Source of the DNA: Candidatus Omnitrophota bacterium
Lineage (GTDB): Bacteria > Omnitrophota > Gorgyraeia > Aquiviventales > Aquiviventaceae
DNA: 64,000 nucleotides
NCBI GenBank assembly: GCA_023247255.1
Contig: JAHFGV010000005.1
Coordinates: 6,067 to 70,066, forward strand
Direction of reading: 5' to 3'
Shown here: piece by piece, positions 1,072-53,888 of the stretch
Layout: every line of letters starts with the position of its first letter
Position numbering within the stretch: the first letter of the stretch is position 1
Program-made: the position numbers and the translations under genes
The notes under the pieces: model-generated
Databases searched by the model: none
Seen by the model: the letters and a program-made list of their open reading frames with translations, nothing else
What the model was told of the DNA's origin: nothing

Positions 1072-1832
1072 GGCAGCTCAAATCAGGCGTTCCTGTAGAT
1101 TATCGAGGCACGGTTGACCATCCCCGAGTTGCTTCCGACCGTTTGATCGTGGCGTTGGACTCCGCTGATTTGCCATCCGCGCTTGCCATGGCCAGGCGCC
1201 TTAAGGGTATCGTACGGATGGTTAAAATCGGAAGCGTCCTTTTCACCGCTTGTGGGCCTGTGGCGATTCGTAAAATAAAACAGTTGGGCTTCGACGTCAT
1301 GTTGGATTTGAAATTTTTCGATATCCCCTCCACCATCGAGATGAGTTGCCGCGCGGCCGCGCGTCATCGAGTGTCTTTGCTTACGGTGCATGCCACCGGC
1401 CAGCGTCCGATGTTAGAGGCGGCTGTGCGCGGAGCAACCGAGGAGGCTTGGCGTCTTGGCTTGCCTGTTCCAGATGTGCTTGCCGTTACCGTTCTGACCA
1501 GTGTGGGAGAAAACAACCGGCGTTCGATAAGCGCCCAGGTGCTGAGATTGGCTGAGCAAGCAAGACAAGCCCATTGCCCAGGGGTAGTGGCATCCGCACA
1601 GGAAGCGGCGAAGCTTCGCAAGCGTTTTGGCCAGCAGCTGAGGATTCTCTGCCCAGGCATCCGAGCATCCAGCGCTGGAGGGGACGATCAGCACCGGGTG
1701 GCAACACCCAGCCAGGCGCTCTTGGCCGGGGCCGATTGGTTGGTGGTGGGTCGACCCATCACTGCGTCTGTCGATCCGCGTCAGGCTACGAAGCGGATCC
1801 TCAAGGAGATGGAGGCGGCAACGGAATGTTGA
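1062..1832 (+). CDS. pyrF: orotidine 5'-phosphate decarboxylase
   Basis: 256 aa with RLIVALD, VKIGSVLF and DVMLDLKFFDIPST motifs typical of PyrF. Overlaps the pyrD stop. Confidence 0.8.
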   Translation: MAVRQLKSGVPVDYRGTVDHPRVASDRLIVALDSADLPSALAMARRLKGIVRMVKIGSVLFTACGPVAIRKIKQLGFDVMLDLKFFDIPSTIEMSCRAAARHRVSLLTVHATGQRPMLEAAVRGATEEAWRLGLPVPDVLAVTVLTSVGENNRRSISAQVLRLAEQARQAHCPGVVASAQEAAKLRKRFGQQLRILCPGIRASSAGGDDQHRVATPSQALLAGADWLVVGRPITASVDPRQATKRILKEMEAATEC

Positions 1833-2422
1833 CACGCGATCAGCTTCTTGCCATCTTTCGCCAGTGCAACGCCCTTCAGCGAGGGCATTTTGAACTCTCT
1901 TCAGGGCTGCATAGTGGGCACTACTTTCAATGCGCGCAGTTTTTGCAACACCCGAAACTAGCTGCTACCGTCTGCCGCGAGCTTGCCCGGCGATTTGTGT
2001 CGCGCAAGCCAACCGTCGTGATCGGTCCGGCGACGGGAGGCATCATCGTGGCGTATGAAGTTGCCCGAGCCCTGAGGGGCAGGGCCCTCTACGCCGAGCG
2101 GGTCGATGCCGAGATGCAATTGCGTCGCGGGTTCACCGTGACGAAGTTGGATCGGGTGCTTTTAGTGGAAGATGTGGTCACAACCGGAGAGTCTGCCCGG
2201 AAGGTGGCGGAGTTGGTAGAGGCTATGGGTGCGAAGGTAGTCGGCATCGGTGCCGTTGTGGATCGCTCCGGCGGCAAGGTTCGTTTCCGAGGCTGTCGTT
2301 ACGAAAAGCTGCTGGAACTGGACTTTGAGCACTTCGGACCGCACGACTGCCCCCTGTGTAACGAGCACATCCCTTTGACCCATCCGGGTCGGCCGAAAAA
2401 AGGCATGTTCCAAGAGAAATAA
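1826..2422 (+). CDS. pyrE: orotate phosphoribosyltransferase
   Basis: The internal ATG at 1826 overlaps the pyrF stop (ATGTTGA). Product MLTRDQLLAIFRQCNALQRGHFELSSGLHSGHYF ... LVEDVVTTGES (PRPP-binding) is PyrE-like, about 198 aa. Confidence 0.85.
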   Translation: MLTRDQLLAIFRQCNALQRGHFELSSGLHSGHYFQCAQFLQHPKLAATVCRELARRFVSRKPTVVIGPATGGIIVAYEVARALRGRALYAERVDAEMQLRRGFTVTKLDRVLLVEDVVTTGESARKVAELVEAMGAKVVGIGAVVDRSGGKVRFRGCRYEKLLELDFEHFGPHDCPLCNEHIPLTHPGRPKKGMFQEK

Positions 2423-2700
2423 TAATGAGGATTGTGTCCTATTCCAAGAGAAGTAATGAGGATTGTGTCATGTTTCATGAGTCATGTGTCATGAGAGACT
2501 GTTTCATGTGTTATGTGTCATGAAAAAAGCAGAAAATAAACAGGCATCTCAAGCACGGCCAAAGTACGCCTTTTGCTTTCCATGACTCATGACACATAAA
2601 ACATGAAACATGACACAGACGTGAGTACTGGAGCTTAGAACCGTGACTCATGAAACAGACGTGAGCACTGCCACTAACCGCGATGCATTTTGAAAACCCT
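2404..2700. repeat. complex repeat region: tandem duplication of the pyrE 3' end plus a long inverted repeat rich in CATGAAACA/CATGACACA motifs
   Basis: Direct repeat ttccaagagaa(a/g)taatgaggattgtgtc twice (2406-2468). The segment 2467-2530 is the inverted complement of 2581-2640. A 55-bp segment at 2645-2699 recurs at 40158-40214. Confidence 0.5.
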
Positions 2701-3247
2701 CAGATCTAAGAGGTTCACCATGCCTCACGAGTCGATCATCCGAGCCACGGTCGGCGTACTCTTAAGCGGCCTGATCCTCACGGCCGCCTTTTGGGTCGTG
2801 GCGTTACGGAATCTTTTTCGCGCCACCCTCAGCTTAGGGCTTGTCTTGGTCGGGGTGGCTTGTGTCTTTCTTTTGCTTGAAGCGGAGTTCTTGGCATTTG
2901 TTCAGATTTTGGTCTATGTGGGTGCGATTCTGACTTTGGTTGTGTTCGCCGTCATGTTAACGGCTCGTCTGCACATCAGCCCCGCCACACGGGTGACTCA
3001 CCGCCAAGATTCCTGGCTCGCGGGTGCGGCAGCCCTAGCCCTGTTTGGATTATTGGTCTGGGCCACGCAATCGTTGACATTTCCCCAGCGCTTGGCCGTG
3101 GAGTCGGTCCGGTTAACCGCTGTGGGCCAGCAATTCATTACGACTCTGATTTTACCCTTTGAGGCGATCTCCCTGATTTTTGTGGCGGCCATGGTAGGTG
3201 CCATTGCTTTGGTGACTCGTCAATTCCCGCCGTCGGCTGAGCCCTAA
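2690..3247 (+). CDS. nuoJ: NADH-quinone oxidoreductase subunit J
   Basis: 185 aa polytopic membrane protein, NuoJ-like (LVLVGVACVFLLLEAEFLAFVQILVYVGAILTLVVFAVML). An alternative start is at 2720. Confidence 0.85.
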   Translation: MKTLRSKRFTMPHESIIRATVGVLLSGLILTAAFWVVALRNLFRATLSLGLVLVGVACVFLLLEAEFLAFVQILVYVGAILTLVVFAVMLTARLHISPATRVTHRQDSWLAGAAALALFGLLVWATQSLTFPQRLAVESVRLTAVGQQFITTLILPFEAISLIFVAAMVGAIALVTRQFPPSAEP

Positions 3248-3287
3248 CAGGTTACAGGAAAATGCCCTGTTTGCTCAAAGCTAACAA

Positions 3288-3550
3288 TGGGGGGAACGGG
3301 GTGGGAGACGTGGGGCGTGGGAGAACAGATTACAAGAGATAAAAAGTCCTACAACCGGTTTTAAAAAAGGGTTCTTCTGGTTTTGCAGTGGGTAAAAGGA
3401 GCAACACTTCCCTCTCCCAAAGGGAGAGGGAGAAGGGCATGCCCATATATCCCGGAAGCGCCTAAAAAAGAACGGGCGATGTCTAGCTTTCAAGATTTAT
3501 GGAGTGCTATTCGCACTTCCCTCGCCCCCCGCCCCGTTCCCTTTACCCCG
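3288..3550. repeat. split G-rich/C-rich inverted repeat in the nuoJ-nuoK intergenic gap
   Basis: G arm ggggaacggggtgggagacgtggggcgtgggagaacag (3288-3328). Complementary C arm cttccctcgccccccgccccgttccc (3515-3550). The exact 10-mer gggaacgggg / ccccgttccc is shared. The 356-bp nuoJ-K gap is unusual. Confidence 0.4.
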
Positions 3551-3603
3551 GATGCGGGTTTTTCAGCAGTCTGCTGATAGCAAGGATATTGAAACGTAAA
3601 CTC

Positions 3604-5816: not shown

Positions 5817-5857
5817 ATTCCGCAGTTTTTAGCAGGATGCTAAAAGACCCACGGGAT

Positions 5858-6300
5858 GCTAGAGTGCCTAACATAATGATCGCATGGTCGCGCTGGGCGT
5901 AATTGCTTCGATGCGCAAGACGCCAGGAGGAAGCCGTACTGATCCATAGAAGTACGGTGACGACGAGCAACGCAGCGCGGCGAAGCAATTCCGCCCAGCC
6001 CTTAGGGTTGCACTGAAAGATGGCCATCTGCTGCGTCGTTCCTCCTCGGCGTAGCGCTCCTTCGGCTACGCCTTCGTCGTCACTCCTTGCATCTGGGCCA
6101 TCTTTCAGTGCAACGCGGCCATGTGCTCATTATGTTAGGCACTCTTAGGCTGCTCAAAAAGGTGCGAGATGCAAGGCGCAGCTCGATTCGGCTGAGTCCT
6201 TTGACTATCGCTCAGGACTCAGCCCTGAGCAACGTCGAAGGGCTGAGGAGGCGCGTACTTTCAAGTACGCTGACGAAGCCGTCAGGCATACAACGCAGCA
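5858..6300. repeat. nested long inverted-repeat (MITE-like) element in the nuoL-nuoM gap
   Basis: 5858-5890 (agagtgcctaacataatgatcgcatggtcgcg) is the reverse complement of 6117-6148. 6005-6030 pairs with 6090-6118. The centre ggcgtagcgctccttcggctacgcc is palindromic. Further hairpins lie at 5893-6000 and 6190-6225. Confidence 0.5.
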
Positions 6301-6340
6301 GATGTGTCTTTTTCAGCAGCCTGCTTAGGGAGATGCGCAC

Positions 6341-20940: not shown

Positions 20941-21106
20941 GGAGGCGCAGCTCAATGGGTTAGGCGTAGCCCCCGCAGCTTTGATCTGTCCCTAGAAATC
21001 GCGAAGCGATTTCAGGGATCAAATCCGAAATGCTTTGCATTCCATGGGACGAAGCAAATCAGTGGGAGGTGGCGGCCTATCGAGCCGTAGGTTGCGGGTT
21101 AGAGCC
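20941..21106 (+). pseudogene. disrupted tRNA-Asp-like pseudogene (5' and 3' fragments separated by about 100 bp)
   Basis: ttttcaggaggcgcagctcaatgggttag (20935-20964) matches the 5' end and upstream context of the intact tRNA-Asp at 23769. ggtggcggcctatcgagccgtaggttgcgggttagagcc (21068-21106) matches its anticodon and T arms. The acceptor 3' end is missing. Confidence 0.45.
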
Positions 21107-23768: not shown

Positions 23769-23842
23769 GGGGGCGTAGCTCAATTGGTTAGAGTGGCGGC
23801 CTGTCGAGCCGTAGGTTGCGGGTTCGAGCCCCGTCGCCCCCG
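23769..23842 (+). tRNA. tRNA-Asp (anticodon GTC)
   Basis: Acceptor GGGGGCG/CGCCCCC, D arm GCTC-AATTGGTTA-GAGT, anticodon stem GCGGC/GCCGT with loop CTGTCGA, T arm GCGGG-TTCGAGC-CCCGT. Confidence 0.85.
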
Positions 23843-24068: not shown

Positions 24069-24224
24069 CAGCCGACCGGAGTTTGAGCACAGAAAACTGA
24101 TTGCGCAATAGGTCTATTGAAGCCCGCGAGAGGGCTGCTCCATTGCGAGTCCTTCTCGTTCTCCTTGACGGTTGTGGCGCGTAGGCGTATTCTTCATGAG
24201 ATGGGTGACGAACCAAGAGCCTTC

Positions 24225-24875
24225 ATGGGCCAATTCCTCTCTCGTATGGAGCCTTTCAGACGACTCAGCCAGGCTGAACGGCTACGGCTTGCTGCTGTCG
24301 CCCGTGAGAAACGCTATGACAAAGGCGACACCATCTTCCGCGCAGGTCAGCCAGCCGATGCCGTCTGCGTCGTCAGAGAAGGCCGCGTCCACTTGATGAA
24401 ATTTCTCGAAGGCGGGCAGGCGTCCACGACGTGCGTCATGACGCCCGGGGAAACGTTCTGTTGTCTGCCGGCGCTTGACGGAAAACCGTACCCCGTGGAT
24501 GCCGTCGCTGCAGTGGACTCCACGGTCATTTGCATTCCTACCAGCGCCTTCCATGAGCTCCTGCGCAAGAACCCCGCGTTCCTCCAAGACTCACTCTGCC
24601 TCTTCTGCGATCGGCTGCGCCAGGTCGAGGACAAGAGTTGCATGACCTACGACTCCGTCGAGCGGCGGCTGGCCAAATCACTCCTCATGCTCTCAAAGAA
24701 GTTCGGCCCGACGATTCCGCTGACCAAACAGGAGCTGGCCGAGCTGGCCAATACCACCCAGGAGACCACGATCCGAATTTTAAGCCAACTGAGCAAGCAA
24801 GGGGTGATTCGTTCCGCCCGCGGGAAAACCACGATCCTGCGCCCAGAGAAGCTCTCCGCCTTCCTCGACCCGTAA
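24225..24875 (+). CDS. Crp/Fnr-family transcriptional regulator
   Basis: cNMP-binding domain (RYDKGDTIFRAGQPADAVCVVREGRVHLMK) plus a C-terminal HTH (LTKQELAELANTTQETTIRILSQLSKQGVI). Start could be as far upstream as 24117. Confidence 0.75.
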   Translation: MGQFLSRMEPFRRLSQAERLRLAAVAREKRYDKGDTIFRAGQPADAVCVVREGRVHLMKFLEGGQASTTCVMTPGETFCCLPALDGKPYPVDAVAAVDSTVICIPTSAFHELLRKNPAFLQDSLCLFCDRLRQVEDKSCMTYDSVERRLAKSLLMLSKKFGPTIPLTKQELAELANTTQETTIRILSQLSKQGVIRSARGKTTILRPEKLSAFLDP

Positions 24876-25044
24876 GCCCTTCCTGACGGACGTCATAGAA
24901 ATCCTCTAGACCGCAAGGTATCGTTGCGGGTAGCCACGTCACAGAGGAGGTGACTCCGTCGGTTTTGCAAGACTACACTCATTGGACGACGAGGAGTTGC
25001 GGAAGCCTCCAAGGGAGATCCCACGCAACTCCATCATAATGACA

Positions 25045-25056
25045 TGACGTACGTCA
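25045..25056. promoter_or_regulatory. perfect palindrome TGACGTACGTCA (candidate operator), 50 nt upstream of the hemerythrin-like gene
   Basis: TGACG-N2-CGTCA followed by TAGAAGG. Related copies at 24884-24895, 39822-39833 and 43308-43327. Confidence 0.35.
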
Positions 25057-25107
25057 TAGAAGGATTCCCTGTTGAGCGCTACAGTTAGATATGAAAGGAG
25101 GCGCAGG

Positions 25108-39709: not shown

Positions 39710-40157
39710 CGTTCTCGCCTTCTTCCCTAAGGGATCATGCGCCCAAGGAATTCTCATCTCCTCTTTATCCTTGACCTCCTCTACGGCACATCTTAGTTGT
39801 CCAGCCGACAAAAGGTCTCCATGACGTTCGTCATGGAAGACTCTTATCCGGAGCCGCTATCCTCTTTTTCATGACACATCCGTGAATCACGGCTACAAAT
39901 GGCCGACTTGCTGACGATAAGGTCGTTTCTCACAAAGTTCACACCCTGTGAACATTGTGAGAGGTACGTTACCGTCGACGAAGCGTGAAATTCCCGCCAG
40001 GTTTGCAACGGAGCTGTCCGGGAAGCGAGGCCGCTCCGACGAGACAGCGGTTGCCTTCGAACTCAATGTTCCCGGTTCCGTACGGTTTTGCAACACTTCT
40101 CGCTCCGCCATCGACGAGGAGCAGCGTAACTCAGACGCGATTCAGGACATAACACAG

Positions 40158-40214
40158 GACTCATGAAACAGACGTGAGCACTGCCACTAACCTCGATGCA
40201 TTTTGTAAAACCCC
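40158..40214. repeat. 57-bp element shared with the nuoJ upstream region (2645-2699)
   Basis: gactcatgaaacagacgtgagcactgccactaacc(t/g)cgatgcattttg(t/a)aaaaccc. Two mismatches over 55 bp. Confidence 0.5.
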
Positions 40215-40291
40215 AGTTACGACTGACGCCTTCCAAGTCTTCTTGCACCTGCTGTAGTGAATCCATCTGCTGCAGCGAATCTCGCGAAAGG

Positions 40292-42250
40292 TTGACAGGC
40301 TTGTCTGGCCAGCGTCACACGCCGAGCCTCATCGTAACCGGCAACCCCAACGTCGGGAAAAGCGTCATCTTCCAGCTCCTCACCGGCCGCTACGCCACCG
40401 TGTCGAACTATCCGGGCACCACGGTTGCAGTTACCCGAGGATCGGCTTCGTTAGACGGCCGGGTGGTTCGCGTCTACGACACGCCAGGAATCAATAGCTT
40501 GTTCGCCGCCTCAGAAGATGAGCTGGTCGCACGCGATCTGCTGCTGGGTGAACGAACCACCGTGGTGCAGGTTAGCGATGCCAAGAACCTGCTACGTGCC
40601 CTCACACTGACCTTGGAACTGGCTGAAGCTGGACTTCCATCCGTCCTGGATCTGAACATGATGGACGAAGCCAGGGAACGTCGAATCAGCATTGATACGA
40701 AGAAGCTCTCAGGGTTACTTGGGATCTCGGTTGTGCCGACCATTGCAACGCAGCGGTGGGGTATCGAGCGGTTGCGTCGAGTGATCCTGCAGGCACAGCA
40801 GGCTCGGGTTGGCGTTTGCTACCCCAAAGTGATTGAAGATGCCATTGCCAAGATGGTGGAGGTCCTACCAAAGACGCTGGGCGTACGGAAAGCCCTGGCG
40901 TTGTTCTGGCTTGCTGGGGATCGGAACATCATCGAGCAGCTCAAGAAGCAATTCGACCCATCAATCATCGAGGCGCTGACGGCAATCGCTGCGCAGGCTC
41001 AAGAACAGACCTCTGGCCCATTAGGGTTGCTGATCAGTCAAGCCCGACTCCGCGAGGCCGAGCGACTCGTCAAGCAGGTGATGACGACTGCACCTCTGGA
41101 GCGCCAGCGGTGGTTTTACCGCCTGGGTGATTGGGCGATGCACCCGGTTTGGGGGGTGCCCATCCTCGTTGGCGTCCTGGTCATGATGTACTTCCTCGTC
41201 GGAAATCTCGCAGCTCAGCGTGGCGTAGATTTCCTAGAAGACGTGGTCTTTGGGCGCTACCTCACCCCAGTCTTTCAGTGGGTTGTTCAAGGGGCGATCC
41301 CTTGGGGGTGGCTCAAGGCGCTCTTCATCGGTGAGTACGGCCTGCTGACGATGGCTCTGCCCTACGCTTTTGCGATCATCCTGCCCATCGTGGGGATGTT
41401 CTTTCTCTGCTTCGGATTGCTTGAGGATGTGGGCTACCTTCCTCGACTAGCCGTGATGGCCAATCGCTTTTGTCGGCTCCTGGGTCTCAACGGCAAGGCG
41501 GTGCTCCCACTCGTGCTGGGGTTGGGATGCGACACAATGGCCACGATGACCGCCCGCATCCTCGACTCGGATCGGGATCGGATCATCACAACGCTCTTGT
41601 TGGCACTCGGCATCCCTTGTTCCGCTCAACTGGGCGTCATCCTAGCGATGCTGGCGGGCCGCCCGCCGTTGGCCCTGGGGATTTGGCTTGGCGTGTTACT
41701 CATGGTGATCATTGTGGTTGGTCAAGCCGCGTCAAGAATCCTGCCGGGCGAGGAGAGCCCGTTTCTCTACGAGATCCCACCGCTTCGCACGCCGAAGCTG
41801 TCGAATGTGCTGATCAAGACGCTGGGTCGCATCGAGTGGTATGTGAAAGAAGCCGTCCCGCTGTTCTTCCTGGGAACCCTGGTGTTATTCCTCCTCGATG
41901 TGACAGGAGCCCTGGCGGTCTTCGAGCGAATCGGGACCCCGCTCATTGTCTCGTGGCTCGGGCTGCCAGCCAAAGCGACCAGTGCATTTCTGGTGGGATT
42001 TCTCCGACGGGATTTTGGTGCGGCCGGGCTCTTCGCGCTTCAGCGAAACGGAATGTTATCTGGAGTCCAGACCGTCGTCAGCCTCGTTACCATCACGCTG
42101 TTTGTCCCCTGCATCGCCCAGTACTTCATGATGGTCAAAGAGCGCGGCTGGAAACTCGCAAATCTGATGGCGGGGTTTGTCTTCGGGATGGCGCTGCTTG
42201 TTGGAGGTCTCCTCTTGCGCGTTCTCACCCTGTTGCGAGTTACCCTATGA
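40292..42250 (+). CDS. feoB: ferrous iron transporter FeoB
   Basis: G-domain LIVTGNPNVGKSVIF, DTPG, then a polytopic permease domain. Likely TTG start at 40292. The annotated ATG at 40196 lies inside the repeat. Confidence 0.85.
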   Translation: MTGLSGQRHTPSLIVTGNPNVGKSVIFQLLTGRYATVSNYPGTTVAVTRGSASLDGRVVRVYDTPGINSLFAASEDELVARDLLLGERTTVVQVSDAKNLLRALTLTLELAEAGLPSVLDLNMMDEARERRISIDTKKLSGLLGISVVPTIATQRWGIERLRRVILQAQQARVGVCYPKVIEDAIAKMVEVLPKTLGVRKALALFWLAGDRNIIEQLKKQFDPSIIEALTAIAAQAQEQTSGPLGLLISQARLREAERLVKQVMTTAPLERQRWFYRLGDWAMHPVWGVPILVGVLVMMYFLVGNLAAQRGVDFLEDVVFGRYLTPVFQWVVQGAIPWGWLKALFIGEYGLLTMALPYAFAIILPIVGMFFLCFGLLEDVGYLPRLAVMANRFCRLLGLNGKAVLPLVLGLGCDTMATMTARILDSDRDRIITTLLLALGIPCSAQLGVILAMLAGRPPLALGIWLGVLLMVIIVVGQAASRILPGEESPFLYEIPPLRTPKLSNVLIKTLGRIEWYVKEAVPLFFLGTLVLFLLDVTGALAVFERIGTPLIVSWLGLPAKATSAFLVGFLRRDFGAAGLFALQRNGMLSGVQTVVSLVTITLFVPCIAQYFMMVKERGWKLANLMAGFVFGMALLVGGLLLRVLTLLRVTL

Positions 42251-43254: not shown

Positions 43255-43308
43255 CCTTCCACACGACCCAAGTCCCCTGGACGCCGTGTAATCAGAATCT
43301 ATCCATCC

Positions 43309-43581
43309 ATGACTCCCGTCATGGAAGAGCCTAGAGCAGATGCTGTAGGCTTTGATGTGCAGATGGACACAGTGACGGTCCGTGAGAAAATTAAGCGGCT
43401 GAAGACTACTCGACAGGCGCTGAGCTGGTCCGAGGAGGTCTGTGCCTATCACCTGGGCGTGACGTACTCGACCTTGAACCGTTGGGAGCGCGGCGAGTCC
43501 TTGCCGAAGAGCCGCGCGGTGCTCAAAGCGATTGACCAGTTCATTGCCCGGCACAGCAAGGAACAAGTCGGAAGGAGGTAA
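43309..43581 (+). CDS. XRE-family HTH protein
   Basis: [29 protein letters not shown] is HTH_3-like. Its start lies within a palindromic motif. Confidence 0.4.
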
Positions 43582-53172: not shown

Positions 53173-53888
53173 CGCGCGTCAGGGTTCTTTGGGGTGTGAT
53201 CGCGTAGGGTACGTGGTGGGATGACAATTCGAAACGACGCTCCGAGTTCAGCGACCTAAGCTCGCGTGATGGCGGGGATGGTCCCTGAACCCCTGTCCCA
53301 CACGCAACGCCGCGTGTAGGACCGGGCCGGGAAGGAAACGACTCGGCCTCCTCGTGTTCGGAAAGGAGACGGCAGGCTGGAGTATCGTCAAGCCAGCTTC
53401 TCTTTCCACACGAGGAGCTGGCTTGTTTCGTCACTGAGGGACGGTACCCGATGCAGGAACAACGTGTGACGCTCTGGTGCAAGGTGTTGGGTCGGCTGGT
53501 TGAGGTGGTCATCGCCAGGAATCACCATGCCCAGCCACCAGTCCCAGGGGTCCCTGAAGGCTGGAAGGTAACGGAGTGTCTGGAGAAAGACACGCCGTGT
53601 TTTGGCAAGGGCTGTCCGTTCACTACGGATGGTGGAGAGTCCCCCTTTGGGGAGGCGGGCGAGCTGCCCGATCTCTCCTCTGAGTCGTTCGATCCGCTCG
53701 CTGAACCAGGGTCTGAGGGAAAGGGTAGTTGACCCCACCACCTGTCTGTCAAGGCAGCTCCGTTGTTCCACGCTGACAGGATGCCTTGATGGACGTGACA
53801 GGGAATCGGACACGATGTTTCGGTATACAGTAAAAAGATTAGTAGGCACGTCCAAGACCGCCGTCTGCGGTTCCAGCCAGGTGGTGCG

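What the first reader, a model, noticed from the sequence alone, without database searches (positions are those of the whole stretch)
2404..2700. Repeat-rich pyrE-nuoJ spacer sharing a 55-bp segment with the region just upstream of feoB
The spacer has a tandem 33-bp duplication of the pyrE stop region, then a long inverted repeat built from CATGAAACA / CATGACACA / TCATGA units. The segment gactcatgaaacagacgtgagcactgccactaaccgcgatgcattttgaaaaccc (2645-2699) recurs with 2 mismatches at 40158-40214, directly upstream of feoB. Both copies end at an ATGCATTTTG that the ORF caller used as a start. This suggests a shared promoter or operator module, or a repeat terminus placed ahead of two unrelated operons.
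Basis: seen in the sequence. Interest (0 to 1): 0.5.

Follow-up and report, generated by a model that had tools for sequence, protein, structure and literature searches.

The report
Heptamer-repeat hairpin insert with copied tail
The pyrE-nuoJ gap is a roughly 300-base insertion of ordinary seven-base tandem repeats that fold into a hairpin, and its 59-base tail also occurs at the start of feoB, most likely as a copied piece of repeat DNA rather than a shared regulatory switch.

Summary
There is a 34/31-nt tandem duplication of the pyrE stop region. Two inverted arrays of 7-nt units (TGTKTCA / TGAMACA) fold into a -75 kcal/mol hairpin. A 59-nt segment (2645-2703) recurs at 40158-40216 at 93% identity, with 35 nt exact.

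In a syntenic relative, pyrE and nuoJ lie 19 nt apart, so the 297-nt spacer is probably a lineage-specific insertion. Two more structured inserts sit at nuoJ|nuoK and nuoL|nuoM in the same operon. Inverted heptamer arrays are common in unrelated phyla and are described in the literature, so the hairpin is ordinary.

The shared segment is the last two heptamers plus a 45-nt tail. At feoB it supplies the 38-nt leader and the first 7 codons. At nuoJ it leaves an 8-codon uORF that ends in the nuoJ ribosome-binding site.

It matches no Rfam family, no sigma-70-like promoter, and no Fur, DtxR, NsrR or IscR consensus. It is absent upstream of feoB in a relative. A conserved Crp/Fnr-type palindrome 320 nt upstream is a better feoB operator candidate.

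My best reading is a segmental copy of repeat-associated DNA. A portable leader or promoter is not excluded. Genome-wide copy number could not be tested. Interest is low.

The parts
1826..2422 (+). pyrE (orotate phosphoribosyltransferase-like), upstream flank
   Evidence: Pfam Pribosyltran match. The start follows the Logan gene call. The exact 198-aa product is present in NCBI and ENA.
2408..2472 (+). Tandem duplication (34 + 31 nt) of the pyrE stop region. Each unit ends with FQEK-stop and then TGAGGATTGTGTC.
   Evidence: D3, D4.
2464..2523 (+). Left arm: about 8 heptamer units TGTGTCA/TGTTTCA/TGAGTCA, with one irregular 8-nt unit
   Evidence: TRF period 7, 8.3 copies. Unit parse.
2524..2582 (+). 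Loop of the hairpin. Its A-rich and T-rich ends (AAAGCAGAAAA / CTTTTGCTTT) extend the stem.
   Evidence: Folds.
2583..2617 (+). Right arm, inner part: 5 heptamers TGACTCA TGACACA TAAAACA TGAAACA TGACACA
   Evidence: 96% complementary to 2500-2523 (I3).
2618..2643 (+). 26-nt segment GACGTGAGTACTGGAGCTTAGAACCG. It is a diverged duplicate of the module head and belongs to a 40-nt local tandem duplication (2599-2630 vs 2639-2670, 81%).
   Evidence: (D2).
2645..2703 (+). Shared segment, copy 1. It has two heptamers (GACTCA TGAAACA, which pair with 2471-2484 at the base of the hairpin) plus a 45-nt tail. The tail contains ATG 2683, which opens the uORF MHFENPQI* ending at TAA 2707-2709.
   Evidence: The uORF was read directly.
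2709..3247 (+). nuoJ ribosome-binding site (AAGAGG, 2709-2714) and nuoJ CDS (ATG 2720)
   Evidence: Pfam Oxidored_q3. The exact 175-aa product is in NCBI and ENA.
39865..39879 (+). TTTTTCATGACACA: a 15-nt exact match to the reverse complement of the inner left arm (2513-2527). It may be the upstream remnant of a family-A array.
39880..40147 (+). 268-nt segment that splits the heptamer remnants. It has weak terminal inverted repeats (39883-39894 / 40133-40144) and an internal 16-bp palindrome (39928-39962). No coding signal was found.
40148..40216 (+). Shared segment, copy 2, with three preceding heptamers (TAACACA GGACTCA TGAAACA). Its last 21 nt are the first 7 codons of feoB.
   Evidence: Identical in L001 and L002.
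40196..42250 (+). feoB. ATG 40196 is the only in-frame ATG, GTG or TTG start that retains the Cys motif conserved in relatives' N-terminal extensions.
   Evidence: Pfam match. Exact protein in three contigs. N-terminal alignment.
39820..39835 (.). CATGACGTTCGTCATG palindrome (ATGAC-N4-GTCAT). This is a candidate Crp/Fnr-type operator upstream of feoB. It is not part of the shared segment.
   Evidence: conserved at L085 2623-2638. A Crp/Fnr gene sits next to similar sites.

Best explanation
The pyrE-nuoJ spacer is a lineage-specific insertion of simple-sequence DNA. Two arrays of seven-base units in opposite orientation form a long hairpin. Replication slippage has reshaped the region further, producing a 31-34-nt and a 40-nt tandem duplication.

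The 59-nt 'module' is the last two heptamers of such an array plus a 45-nt tail. The same piece sits at the head of feoB, where it forms the 38-nt leader and the first seven codons. Fragments of the same array family lie upstream of it there.

The two copies are most simply explained as a segmental copy between two array-bearing spacers. Candidate routes are template switching, ectopic recombination between arrays, or movement as part of a small non-autonomous repeat. On this reading they are not an operator kept by selection.

Likely consequences at nuoJ (inferred, not shown):
- The hairpin has no U-tract, so transcription from pyrDFE probably reads through it. The hairpin would then act like an intercistronic REP-type structure in the mRNA.
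- The copied feoB-type start codon leaves an 8-codon uORF whose stop overlaps the nuoJ Shine-Dalgarno sequence.
For: - Relative L090 has the same gene order (carB-PilZ-pyrD-pyrF-pyrE-nuoJKLMN-atp), with only 19 nt between pyrE and nuoJ.
- The same operon in the window carries two more structured inserts where L090 has 0 and 13 nt. These are nuoJ|nuoK (356 nt, z -4.3) and nuoL|nuoM (524 nt, 35-nt terminal inverted repeats, z -9.95).
- Unit-by-unit parsing shows that the array/tail junction ACA|GACGTGAG occurs three times. It also shows that the module head pairs with the outer left arm.
- The feoB spacer holds TTTTTCATGACACA and TAACACA, which are contiguous in the nuoJ arm but split by 268 nt at feoB.
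- Relative L085 has a different heptamer array (CTTGTCN x9-12) in the ccsA-feoB spacer, itself split by a 135-nt inverted-repeat element. It has no copy of the module.
- Inverted heptamer arrays are common elsewhere. I found 36 arrays in 701 kb from 80 unrelated loci, and some fold as hairpins (L049 z -8.9, L065 z -6.4). They are described in PMC4692102.
- Negative results: no Rfam match; no terminator or + strand sigma-70 site; no operator consensus match; no coding signal.
Against: - Only two copies and one partial copy are visible, so 'dispersed repeat' is not demonstrated.
- Both copies face the downstream gene and lie next to a start codon, as a functional leader or promoter would.
- The inter-locus copies (93-98% identical) are more alike than the local 40-nt duplicate (81%). 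This could reflect selection rather than recency.
- The inferred ancestral 19-nt gap rests on one relative, with 66% NuoL identity.
- The direction of copying is not resolved.
Confidence: 0.55

Rival explanations
1. Portable expression module. The 59-nt piece would be a mobile promoter and/or 5' leader with its own start codon. It would drive feoB directly and drive nuoJ through a coupled 8-codon uORF, restoring nuoJKLMN expression downstream of the inserted hairpin.
For: - Both copies have the same orientation as the downstream gene. One lies at -75..-17 relative to nuoJ and the other at -38..+21 relative to feoB.
- Length and identity meet the operational threshold for 'putative mobile promoters', at least 50 nt at 80% or more upstream of non-homologous genes (PMC3488235).
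- The uORF stop (TAA 2707-2709) overlaps the nuoJ Shine-Dalgarno sequence.
- The ATG region is unpaired in the predicted folds of both copies.
- Neither spacer has any other recognisable + strand promoter.
Against: - No -35/-10 pair in the module passes the scan. This organism does show canonical sites elsewhere, for example TTCACA-N18-TATAAT upstream of the atp genes.
- No Shine-Dalgarno sequence precedes the module ATG.
- The other two inserts in the same operon carry no such module, so read-through evidently does not require one.
- The module is absent upstream of feoB in L085.
Confidence: 0.2
2. Terminus of a true MITE or transposon-derived element, present in many copies genome-wide and mobilised by a transposase in trans.
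For: - The genome is rich in small inverted-repeat elements. Hairpin family B has two copies at 81% identity, and a 285-nt element bounded by terminal inverted repeats sits at nuoL|nuoM.
- Short-read contigs break inside such spacers.
- The Logan contig L003 begins at the repeat.
Against: - No target-site duplication flanks the insert. The 31-34-nt duplication is tandem and on one side only.
- The tail has no inverted partner at the left end.
- There were no further hits in GTDB representative genomes, JGI metagenomes, viral contigs, plasmids or phages.
- No transposase was found nearby.
Confidence: 0.15
3. Shared operator for a metal- or redox-responsive regulator (Fur, DtxR, Rrf2 or Crp/Fnr type) that couples iron uptake to complex I membrane-arm genes.
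For: - A DtxR-like/FeoA gene follows feoB.
- The tail contains GATGCATTT, which resembles one NsrR half-site. This resemblance is recalled from memory.
Against: - The best scores of both copies against Fur, IdeR, NsrR, IscR-1/2, MntR and PerR-like consensus sequences are within the window background.
- 59 nt of near-identity is much longer than an operator.
- The module has no dyad symmetry.
- It is not conserved in L085.
- The conserved ATGAC-N4-GTCAT palindrome upstream of feoB is absent from the nuoJ spacer.
Confidence: 0.05
4. Assembly artefact: a chimeric join or a collapsed repeat in a metagenome-assembled genome.
For: The source is a MAG contig. The nuoJ-side DNA could not be retrieved from a second assembly.
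Against: - The feoB copy is identical in two ENA assemblies.
- The exact PyrE and NuoJ proteins exist in both NCBI and ENA records.
- A Logan unitig from another run breaks exactly where a second context for the 35-mer predicts.
- 59 nt is shorter than the k=141 used in those assemblies.
Confidence: 0.03

Closest known systems
Heptameric simple-sequence repeats: STRR sequences of heterocystous cyanobacteria, and GGGAATC / GGGGAYT repeats of Xanthomonas and Nostoc
   Same: Both are tandem 7-nt units in intergenic DNA, including gaps within operons. They are sometimes arranged as inverted pairs able to form stem-loops. Unit sequences are lineage-specific and length varies (PMC4692102). The same architecture was found here in Terriglobia and Verrucomicrobiota loci.
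   Different: The units here (TGTKTCA, and GATTGTC in family B) are not G-rich and cannot form G-quadruplexes. The host is an uncultured lineage labelled 'Omnitrophica WOR_2' in NCBI. A non-repetitive 45-nt tail travels with the array.
Putative mobile promoters (Matus-Garcia et al. 2012, PMC3488235)
   Same: At least 50 nt at 80% identity or more lies upstream of two non-homologous genes whose upstream neighbours are also non-homologous.
   Different: Copy 1 lies at -75..-17, so it falls mostly outside the -150..-50 window used by that pipeline. No promoter motif is detectable, and the family has only two members in view.
Intercistronic REP/BIME elements and REPINs
   Same: Both are non-coding palindromic inserts between genes of an operon that would fold in the mRNA. 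In E. coli these stabilise upstream segments (my own knowledge; REPINs in PMC3116915).
   Different: The arms here are built from 7-nt tandem units rather than a 20-40-nt imperfect palindrome. There is no GTAG head and no RAYT transposase in view.
MITEs such as Correia (CREE) or ERIC elements that carry promoter parts
   Same: Both are small structured elements inserted near gene starts that can alter expression (cited in PMC3488235).
   Different: No flanking target-site duplication, no inverted copy of the tail, and no demonstrated copy number.

Membership tests
Heptameric SSR / STRR-like arrays | Head-to-tail copies of a 7-nt unit, at least 3-4 copies | tested here: met
   TRF reports period 7 with 8.3 and 5.3 copies. 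Unit parse.
Heptameric SSR / STRR-like arrays | Intergenic location, with an optional inverted pair forming a stem-loop | tested here: met
   The arrays lie between pyrE and nuoJ. The fold is -75.1 kcal/mol with z -6.5.
Heptameric SSR / STRR-like arrays | Copy-number polymorphism between strains | not testable with these tools
   No second assembly of the spacer DNA could be fetched.
MITE | Terminal inverted repeats bounding the whole element | tested here: inconclusive
   The arms are inverted, but the 45-nt tail has no inverted partner.
MITE | Target-site duplication flanking the element | tested here: not met
   The only duplication is tandem, on the pyrE side.
MITE | Many copies per genome | not testable with these tools
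   Only 64 kb of the genome is available. There were 0 related hits in GTDB representatives and viral contigs. The single JGI hit looks like a chance match in a low-GC, eukaryote-like contig.
Putative mobile promoter (PMP) | At least 50 nt at 80% identity or more upstream of non-homologous CDSs with non-homologous upstream CDSs | tested here: met
   59 nt at 93%. The gene pairs are pyrE/nuoJ and ccsA/feoB.
Putative mobile promoter (PMP) | Contains a functional promoter | tested here: inconclusive
   No sigma-70-type site on the + strand. The best sigma-54 score is at background. Alternative sigma factors were not tested.
Fur / DtxR-IdeR / NsrR / IscR / MntR operators | Match to the family's palindromic consensus in both copies | tested here: not met
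   The best scores for the copy at feoB are reached by 0.7-2.6% of all window positions. Copy 1's best IscR type-2 and NsrR scores (0.05% and 0.19% of positions) run partly beyond the shared segment and are not matched in copy 2. The consensus sequences were recalled from model organisms.
Rfam RNA families (riboswitch, leader, sRNA) | Covariance-model hit at or near the gathering score | tested here: not met
   No hit at gathering score. Only noise with E above 2 at the nuoJ spacer, and nothing at feoB.
Intrinsic terminator | GC-rich stem followed directly by a U-tract | tested here: not met
   0 terminator-like sites in 2300-2800. No T-run follows the stem.
REP/REPIN | 20-40-nt imperfect palindrome with a conserved head, associated with a RAYT transposase | tested here: not met
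   The arms are heptamer arrays. No RAYT gene was looked for beyond the window.

The most novel reading that the evidence does not exclude
The 59-nt piece is a portable translation-start cassette: a leader plus an SD-less start codon, and possibly a non-canonical promoter. It would ride on heptamer arrays and could be pasted in front of operons. At feoB it donated the present start codon and N-terminus. At nuoJ it drives a coupled uORF that re-primes translation after a large inserted hairpin.
Probability: 0.15. Interest if true: 0.45.

Novelty: new member of a known kind. Interest (0 to 1): 0.22.

Why it matters
The value is mainly for annotation and evolution. The case shows how simple-sequence arrays and small palindromic inserts can open up a formerly compact operon in an uncultured lineage. 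It also shows how a fragment containing a gene's leader and start codon can be copied to another operon head. If the fragment turned out to be active, it would be a natural example of promoter or leader reuse. As it stands, it mostly warns against reading a two-copy intergenic repeat as a regulon signal.

Tried and rejected
**Searches for more copies**
- A degenerate 22-mer against GTDB representative genomes gave 0 hits.
- The same pattern against JGI metagenomes gave one hit, in a low-GC, eukaryote-like contig. I judged it a chance match.
- The tail against viral contigs gave 0 hits.
- The whole spacer against plasmids and phages gave no match.

**Attempts to fetch the spacer from other assemblies**
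- Look-ups with NuoJ, NuoL, PyrE, NuoK, PyrF and a gene near the window end returned either 'not on record' or only short contigs that stop short of the spacer.
- DNA for the closest FeoB relatives (78% and 73% identity) was unavailable.

**Other rejected ideas**
- NuoL against GTDB found no close relative; the best was 47%.
- Rfam at a permissive threshold gave noise only.
- Small ORFs in both spacers have no Pfam match.
- The 111-aa ORF found upstream of feoB in relatives has no remnant in the window.
- I considered TTG 40292 or 40301 as the true feoB start. I rejected them because they would remove the Cys motif conserved in relatives' N-terminal extensions.
- My first palindrome search used the wrong spacing (N5) and found nothing. 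I corrected it to N4.

Full report
**Observation**

The sequence is as described.
- pyrE ends at 2422. I took its start at 1826 from a public gene call, and the exact 198-aa product is in NCBI and ENA.
- nuoJ starts at ATG 2720, behind an AAGAGG ribosome-binding site. The exact 175-aa product is in NCBI and ENA.

The 297-nt gap contains the following.
- A 34/31-nt tandem duplication of the last four pyrE codons, the stop and 16 downstream bases (2408-2472).
- Two period-7 tandem arrays in opposite orientation: TGTGTCA x8.3 at 2464-2522 and CATGACA x5.3 at 2581-2617.
- A 59-nt segment (2645-2703) that recurs at 40158-40216 at 93% identity. The first 35 nt are exact, with none expected by chance.

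The 2460-2665 stretch folds at -75.1 kcal/mol, z = -6.5. The first 18 nt of the shared segment form the base of this hairpin by pairing with the outer left-arm units.

**Anatomy**

Parsed in heptamers, the right side of the nuoJ spacer reads:

TGACTCA TGACACA TAAAACA TGAAACA TGACACA | GACGTGAGTACTGGAGCTTAGAACCG | TGACTCA TGAAACA | GACGTGAGCACTGCCACTAACCGCGATGCATTTTGAAAACCCTCAG

- The array/tail junction ACA|GACGTGAG occurs twice here, as a 40-nt local duplication at 81% identity.
- It occurs once more at feoB, which reads TAACACA GGACTCA TGAAACA | GACGTGAGCACTGCC...
- The ccsA-feoB spacer also holds TTTTTCATGACACA (39865-39879). This is an exact 15-mer from the inner left arm.
- In the nuoJ arm that 15-mer is directly followed by TAACACA. 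At feoB the two are separated by 268 nt, which carry weak terminal inverted repeats and an internal palindrome.
- So both spacers carry pieces of one array family. The 'module' is the end of an array plus a 45-nt non-repetitive tail.

**Context from relatives**

The closest named relatives are MAGs labelled 'Omnitrophica WOR_2'. FeoB identity to them is 72%, and the best NuoL relatives reach 68% or less.

A JGI contig with 66% NuoL identity (L090) has the same gene order, carB-PilZ-pyrD-pyrF-pyrE-nuoJKLMN-atp. Its junctions are compact:

| Junction | L090 | Window |
|---|---|---|
| pyrE to nuoJ | 19 nt | 297 nt |
| nuoJ to nuoK | 0 nt | 356 nt |
| nuoL to nuoM | 13 nt | 524 nt |

- The nuoJ|nuoK insert has 31-nt inverted arms and z = -4.3.
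- The nuoL|nuoM insert has 35-nt terminal inverted repeats and z = -9.95.
- Short-read contigs from other samples break inside the nuoJ|nuoK insert.
- I therefore read the spacer in question as one of several lineage-specific non-coding insertions into a formerly compact operon. The ancestral state rests on this single relative.

At the feoB locus, relative L085 keeps the order ResB-CcsA-(ORF111)-FeoB-DtxR/FeoA.
- Its ccsA-feoB spacer contains a different heptamer array (CTTGTCN, 9-12 copies). That array is itself split by a 135-nt inverted-repeat element.
- It has no trace of the module.

**How ordinary is the hairpin?**

I ran TRF on 80 unrelated NuoL loci (701 kb).
- It found 36 period-7 arrays in 13 loci, against 7 in this 64-kb window.
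- Several are inverted pairs that fold like the one here: a Terriglobia locus at -70 kcal/mol (z -8.9) and a Verrucomicrobiota locus at -52 kcal/mol (z -6.4).
- The literature reports that heptameric SSRs are over-represented in many bacteria, are intergenic (including within operons), and sometimes occur as inverted pairs (PMC4692102). A Nostoc study discusses them near promoters and start codons.
- The window holds a second family (GATTGTC units). Its two roughly 100-nt hairpin copies lie at 11790-11890 and 19270-19375.

**What the shared tail does at each locus**

At feoB:
- The ATG inside the segment (40196) is the annotated start.
- Relatives' FeoB proteins have N-terminal extensions that vary in length. 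Most of the 16 aligned carry a Cys (often CH or CC) about 20-25 residues before the G1 motif.
- Only ATG 40196 keeps that motif in frame.
- So the segment equals the 38-nt leader plus the first 7 codons of feoB.

At nuoJ:
- The same ATG (2683) opens MHFENPQI*.
- Its TAA stop (2707-2709) overlaps the nuoJ Shine-Dalgarno sequence.

Either a feoB 5' fragment was copied into the nuoJ spacer, or a repeat-borne fragment gave feoB its present start. The data do not decide between these.

**Tests of the regulatory reading**

- No Rfam family matches, at either the gathering or a permissive threshold.
- No sigma-70-like site lies on the + strand of either spacer. No intrinsic terminator follows the hairpin.
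- Canonical promoter-like sites do occur elsewhere in this organism, for example TTCACA-N18-TATAAT upstream of the atp genes.
- No known operator consensus fits both copies. I tested Fur, IdeR/DtxR, NsrR, IscR types 1 and 2, MntR, a PerR-like box and sigma-54. The feoB-side copy scores at window background throughout, and copy 1's two higher scores (IscR type 2, NsrR) run partly outside the shared segment. The consensus sequences were recalled from memory for model organisms.
- The segment meets the length and identity criterion for 'putative mobile promoters' (PMC3488235). That criterion is operational only.

A better operator candidate exists for feoB.
- A perfect ATGAC-N4-GTCAT palindrome lies at 39821-39834 and is conserved at the equivalent place in L085.
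- Similar sites sit next to a Crp/Fnr-family regulator gene (24117-24875), upstream of a hemerythrin-domain gene.
- This palindrome is not shared with the nuoJ spacer.

**Conclusion**

The hairpin is an ordinary heptameric-SSR structure. The 59-nt repeat is best read as a segmental copy of array end plus tail between two array-bearing spacers (confidence about 0.55).

The alternatives are:
- a functional portable leader or promoter (about 0.2);
- the end of a true MITE (about 0.15);
- a shared operator (about 0.05);
- an assembly artefact (about 0.03).

The decisive test is a count and survey of copies in the whole genome. It could not be run, because no collection I could search by DNA returned a related copy and the protein look-ups returned no further contigs.

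Noticed in passing
window 39820-39835, 43308-43323, 25043-25058, 24882-24897; L085 2623-2638: ATGAC-N4-GTCAT palindromes (5-4-5, Crp/Fnr-like). A perfect site lies upstream of feoB and is conserved in a relative with 72% FeoB identity. Another overlaps the start of the HTH_31 gene after dtxR/feoA. Two lie between a Crp/Fnr regulator gene (24117-24875) and a hemerythrin-domain gene. With up to 2 mismatches there are 7 sites against 3.0 expected.
   Followed up: partly
window 3248-3603 and 5817-6340: Two further structured non-coding inserts inside the nuo operon (nuoJ|nuoK and nuoL|nuoM). The syntenic relative L090 has 0 and 13 nt at these junctions. The second insert is a 285-nt element with 35-nt terminal inverted repeats (5861-5895 / 6111-6145).
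   Followed up: partly
window 11790-11890 and 19270-19375: Two copies (81% identity) of a roughly 100-nt hairpin built from GATTGTC heptamer arrays (z -7.9 and -5.5). One follows a gene's stop codon and the other follows tRNA-Val.
   Followed up: partly
window 19196-19212 and 19434-19450: The 3' end of tRNA-Val (17 nt, exact) is repeated 220 nt downstream and brackets the second GATTGTC hairpin. This looks like an att-type duplication left by an integration event.
   Followed up: no
window 21069-21106 vs 23793-23830; 22179 and 24102: A 38-nt, 95%-identical partial copy of tRNA-Asp lies 2.7 kb upstream of the intact gene. There is also an exact 20-mer repeat, TGCGCAATAGGTCTATTGAA. Together these may be the remnant of an island.
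   Followed up: no
L085 2400-2534: In the relative, a 135-nt element with 28-nt inverted ends is inserted inside a CTTGTCN heptamer array upstream of ORF111-feoB. This suggests heptamer arrays act as landing sites for small palindromic elements.
   Followed up: no
L049 3052-3164; L065 3872-3958; L035 (nine arrays in 10 kb): Inverted heptamer-array hairpins occur near nuo operons in unrelated phyla (Terriglobia, Verrucomicrobiota, Anaerolineae), each with its own unit sequence.
   Followed up: partly
window 40196-40340 and FeoB relatives P0002-P0040: FeoB proteins of this clade carry a variable N-terminal extension with a conserved Cys (CH or CC) about 20-25 residues before the G1 motif. Relatives also have a Cys-rich 111-aa ORF overlapping the feoB start. 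That ORF is missing from the window.
   Followed up: partly
window 53228-53385: Molybdenum cofactor riboswitch (Rfam RF01055, 61.6 bits).
   Followed up: no
window 19449, 20796, 51050: Three copies of CCGTATAAATTTTGCT-like 22-mers (77-86% identity) in non-coding DNA.
   Followed up: no
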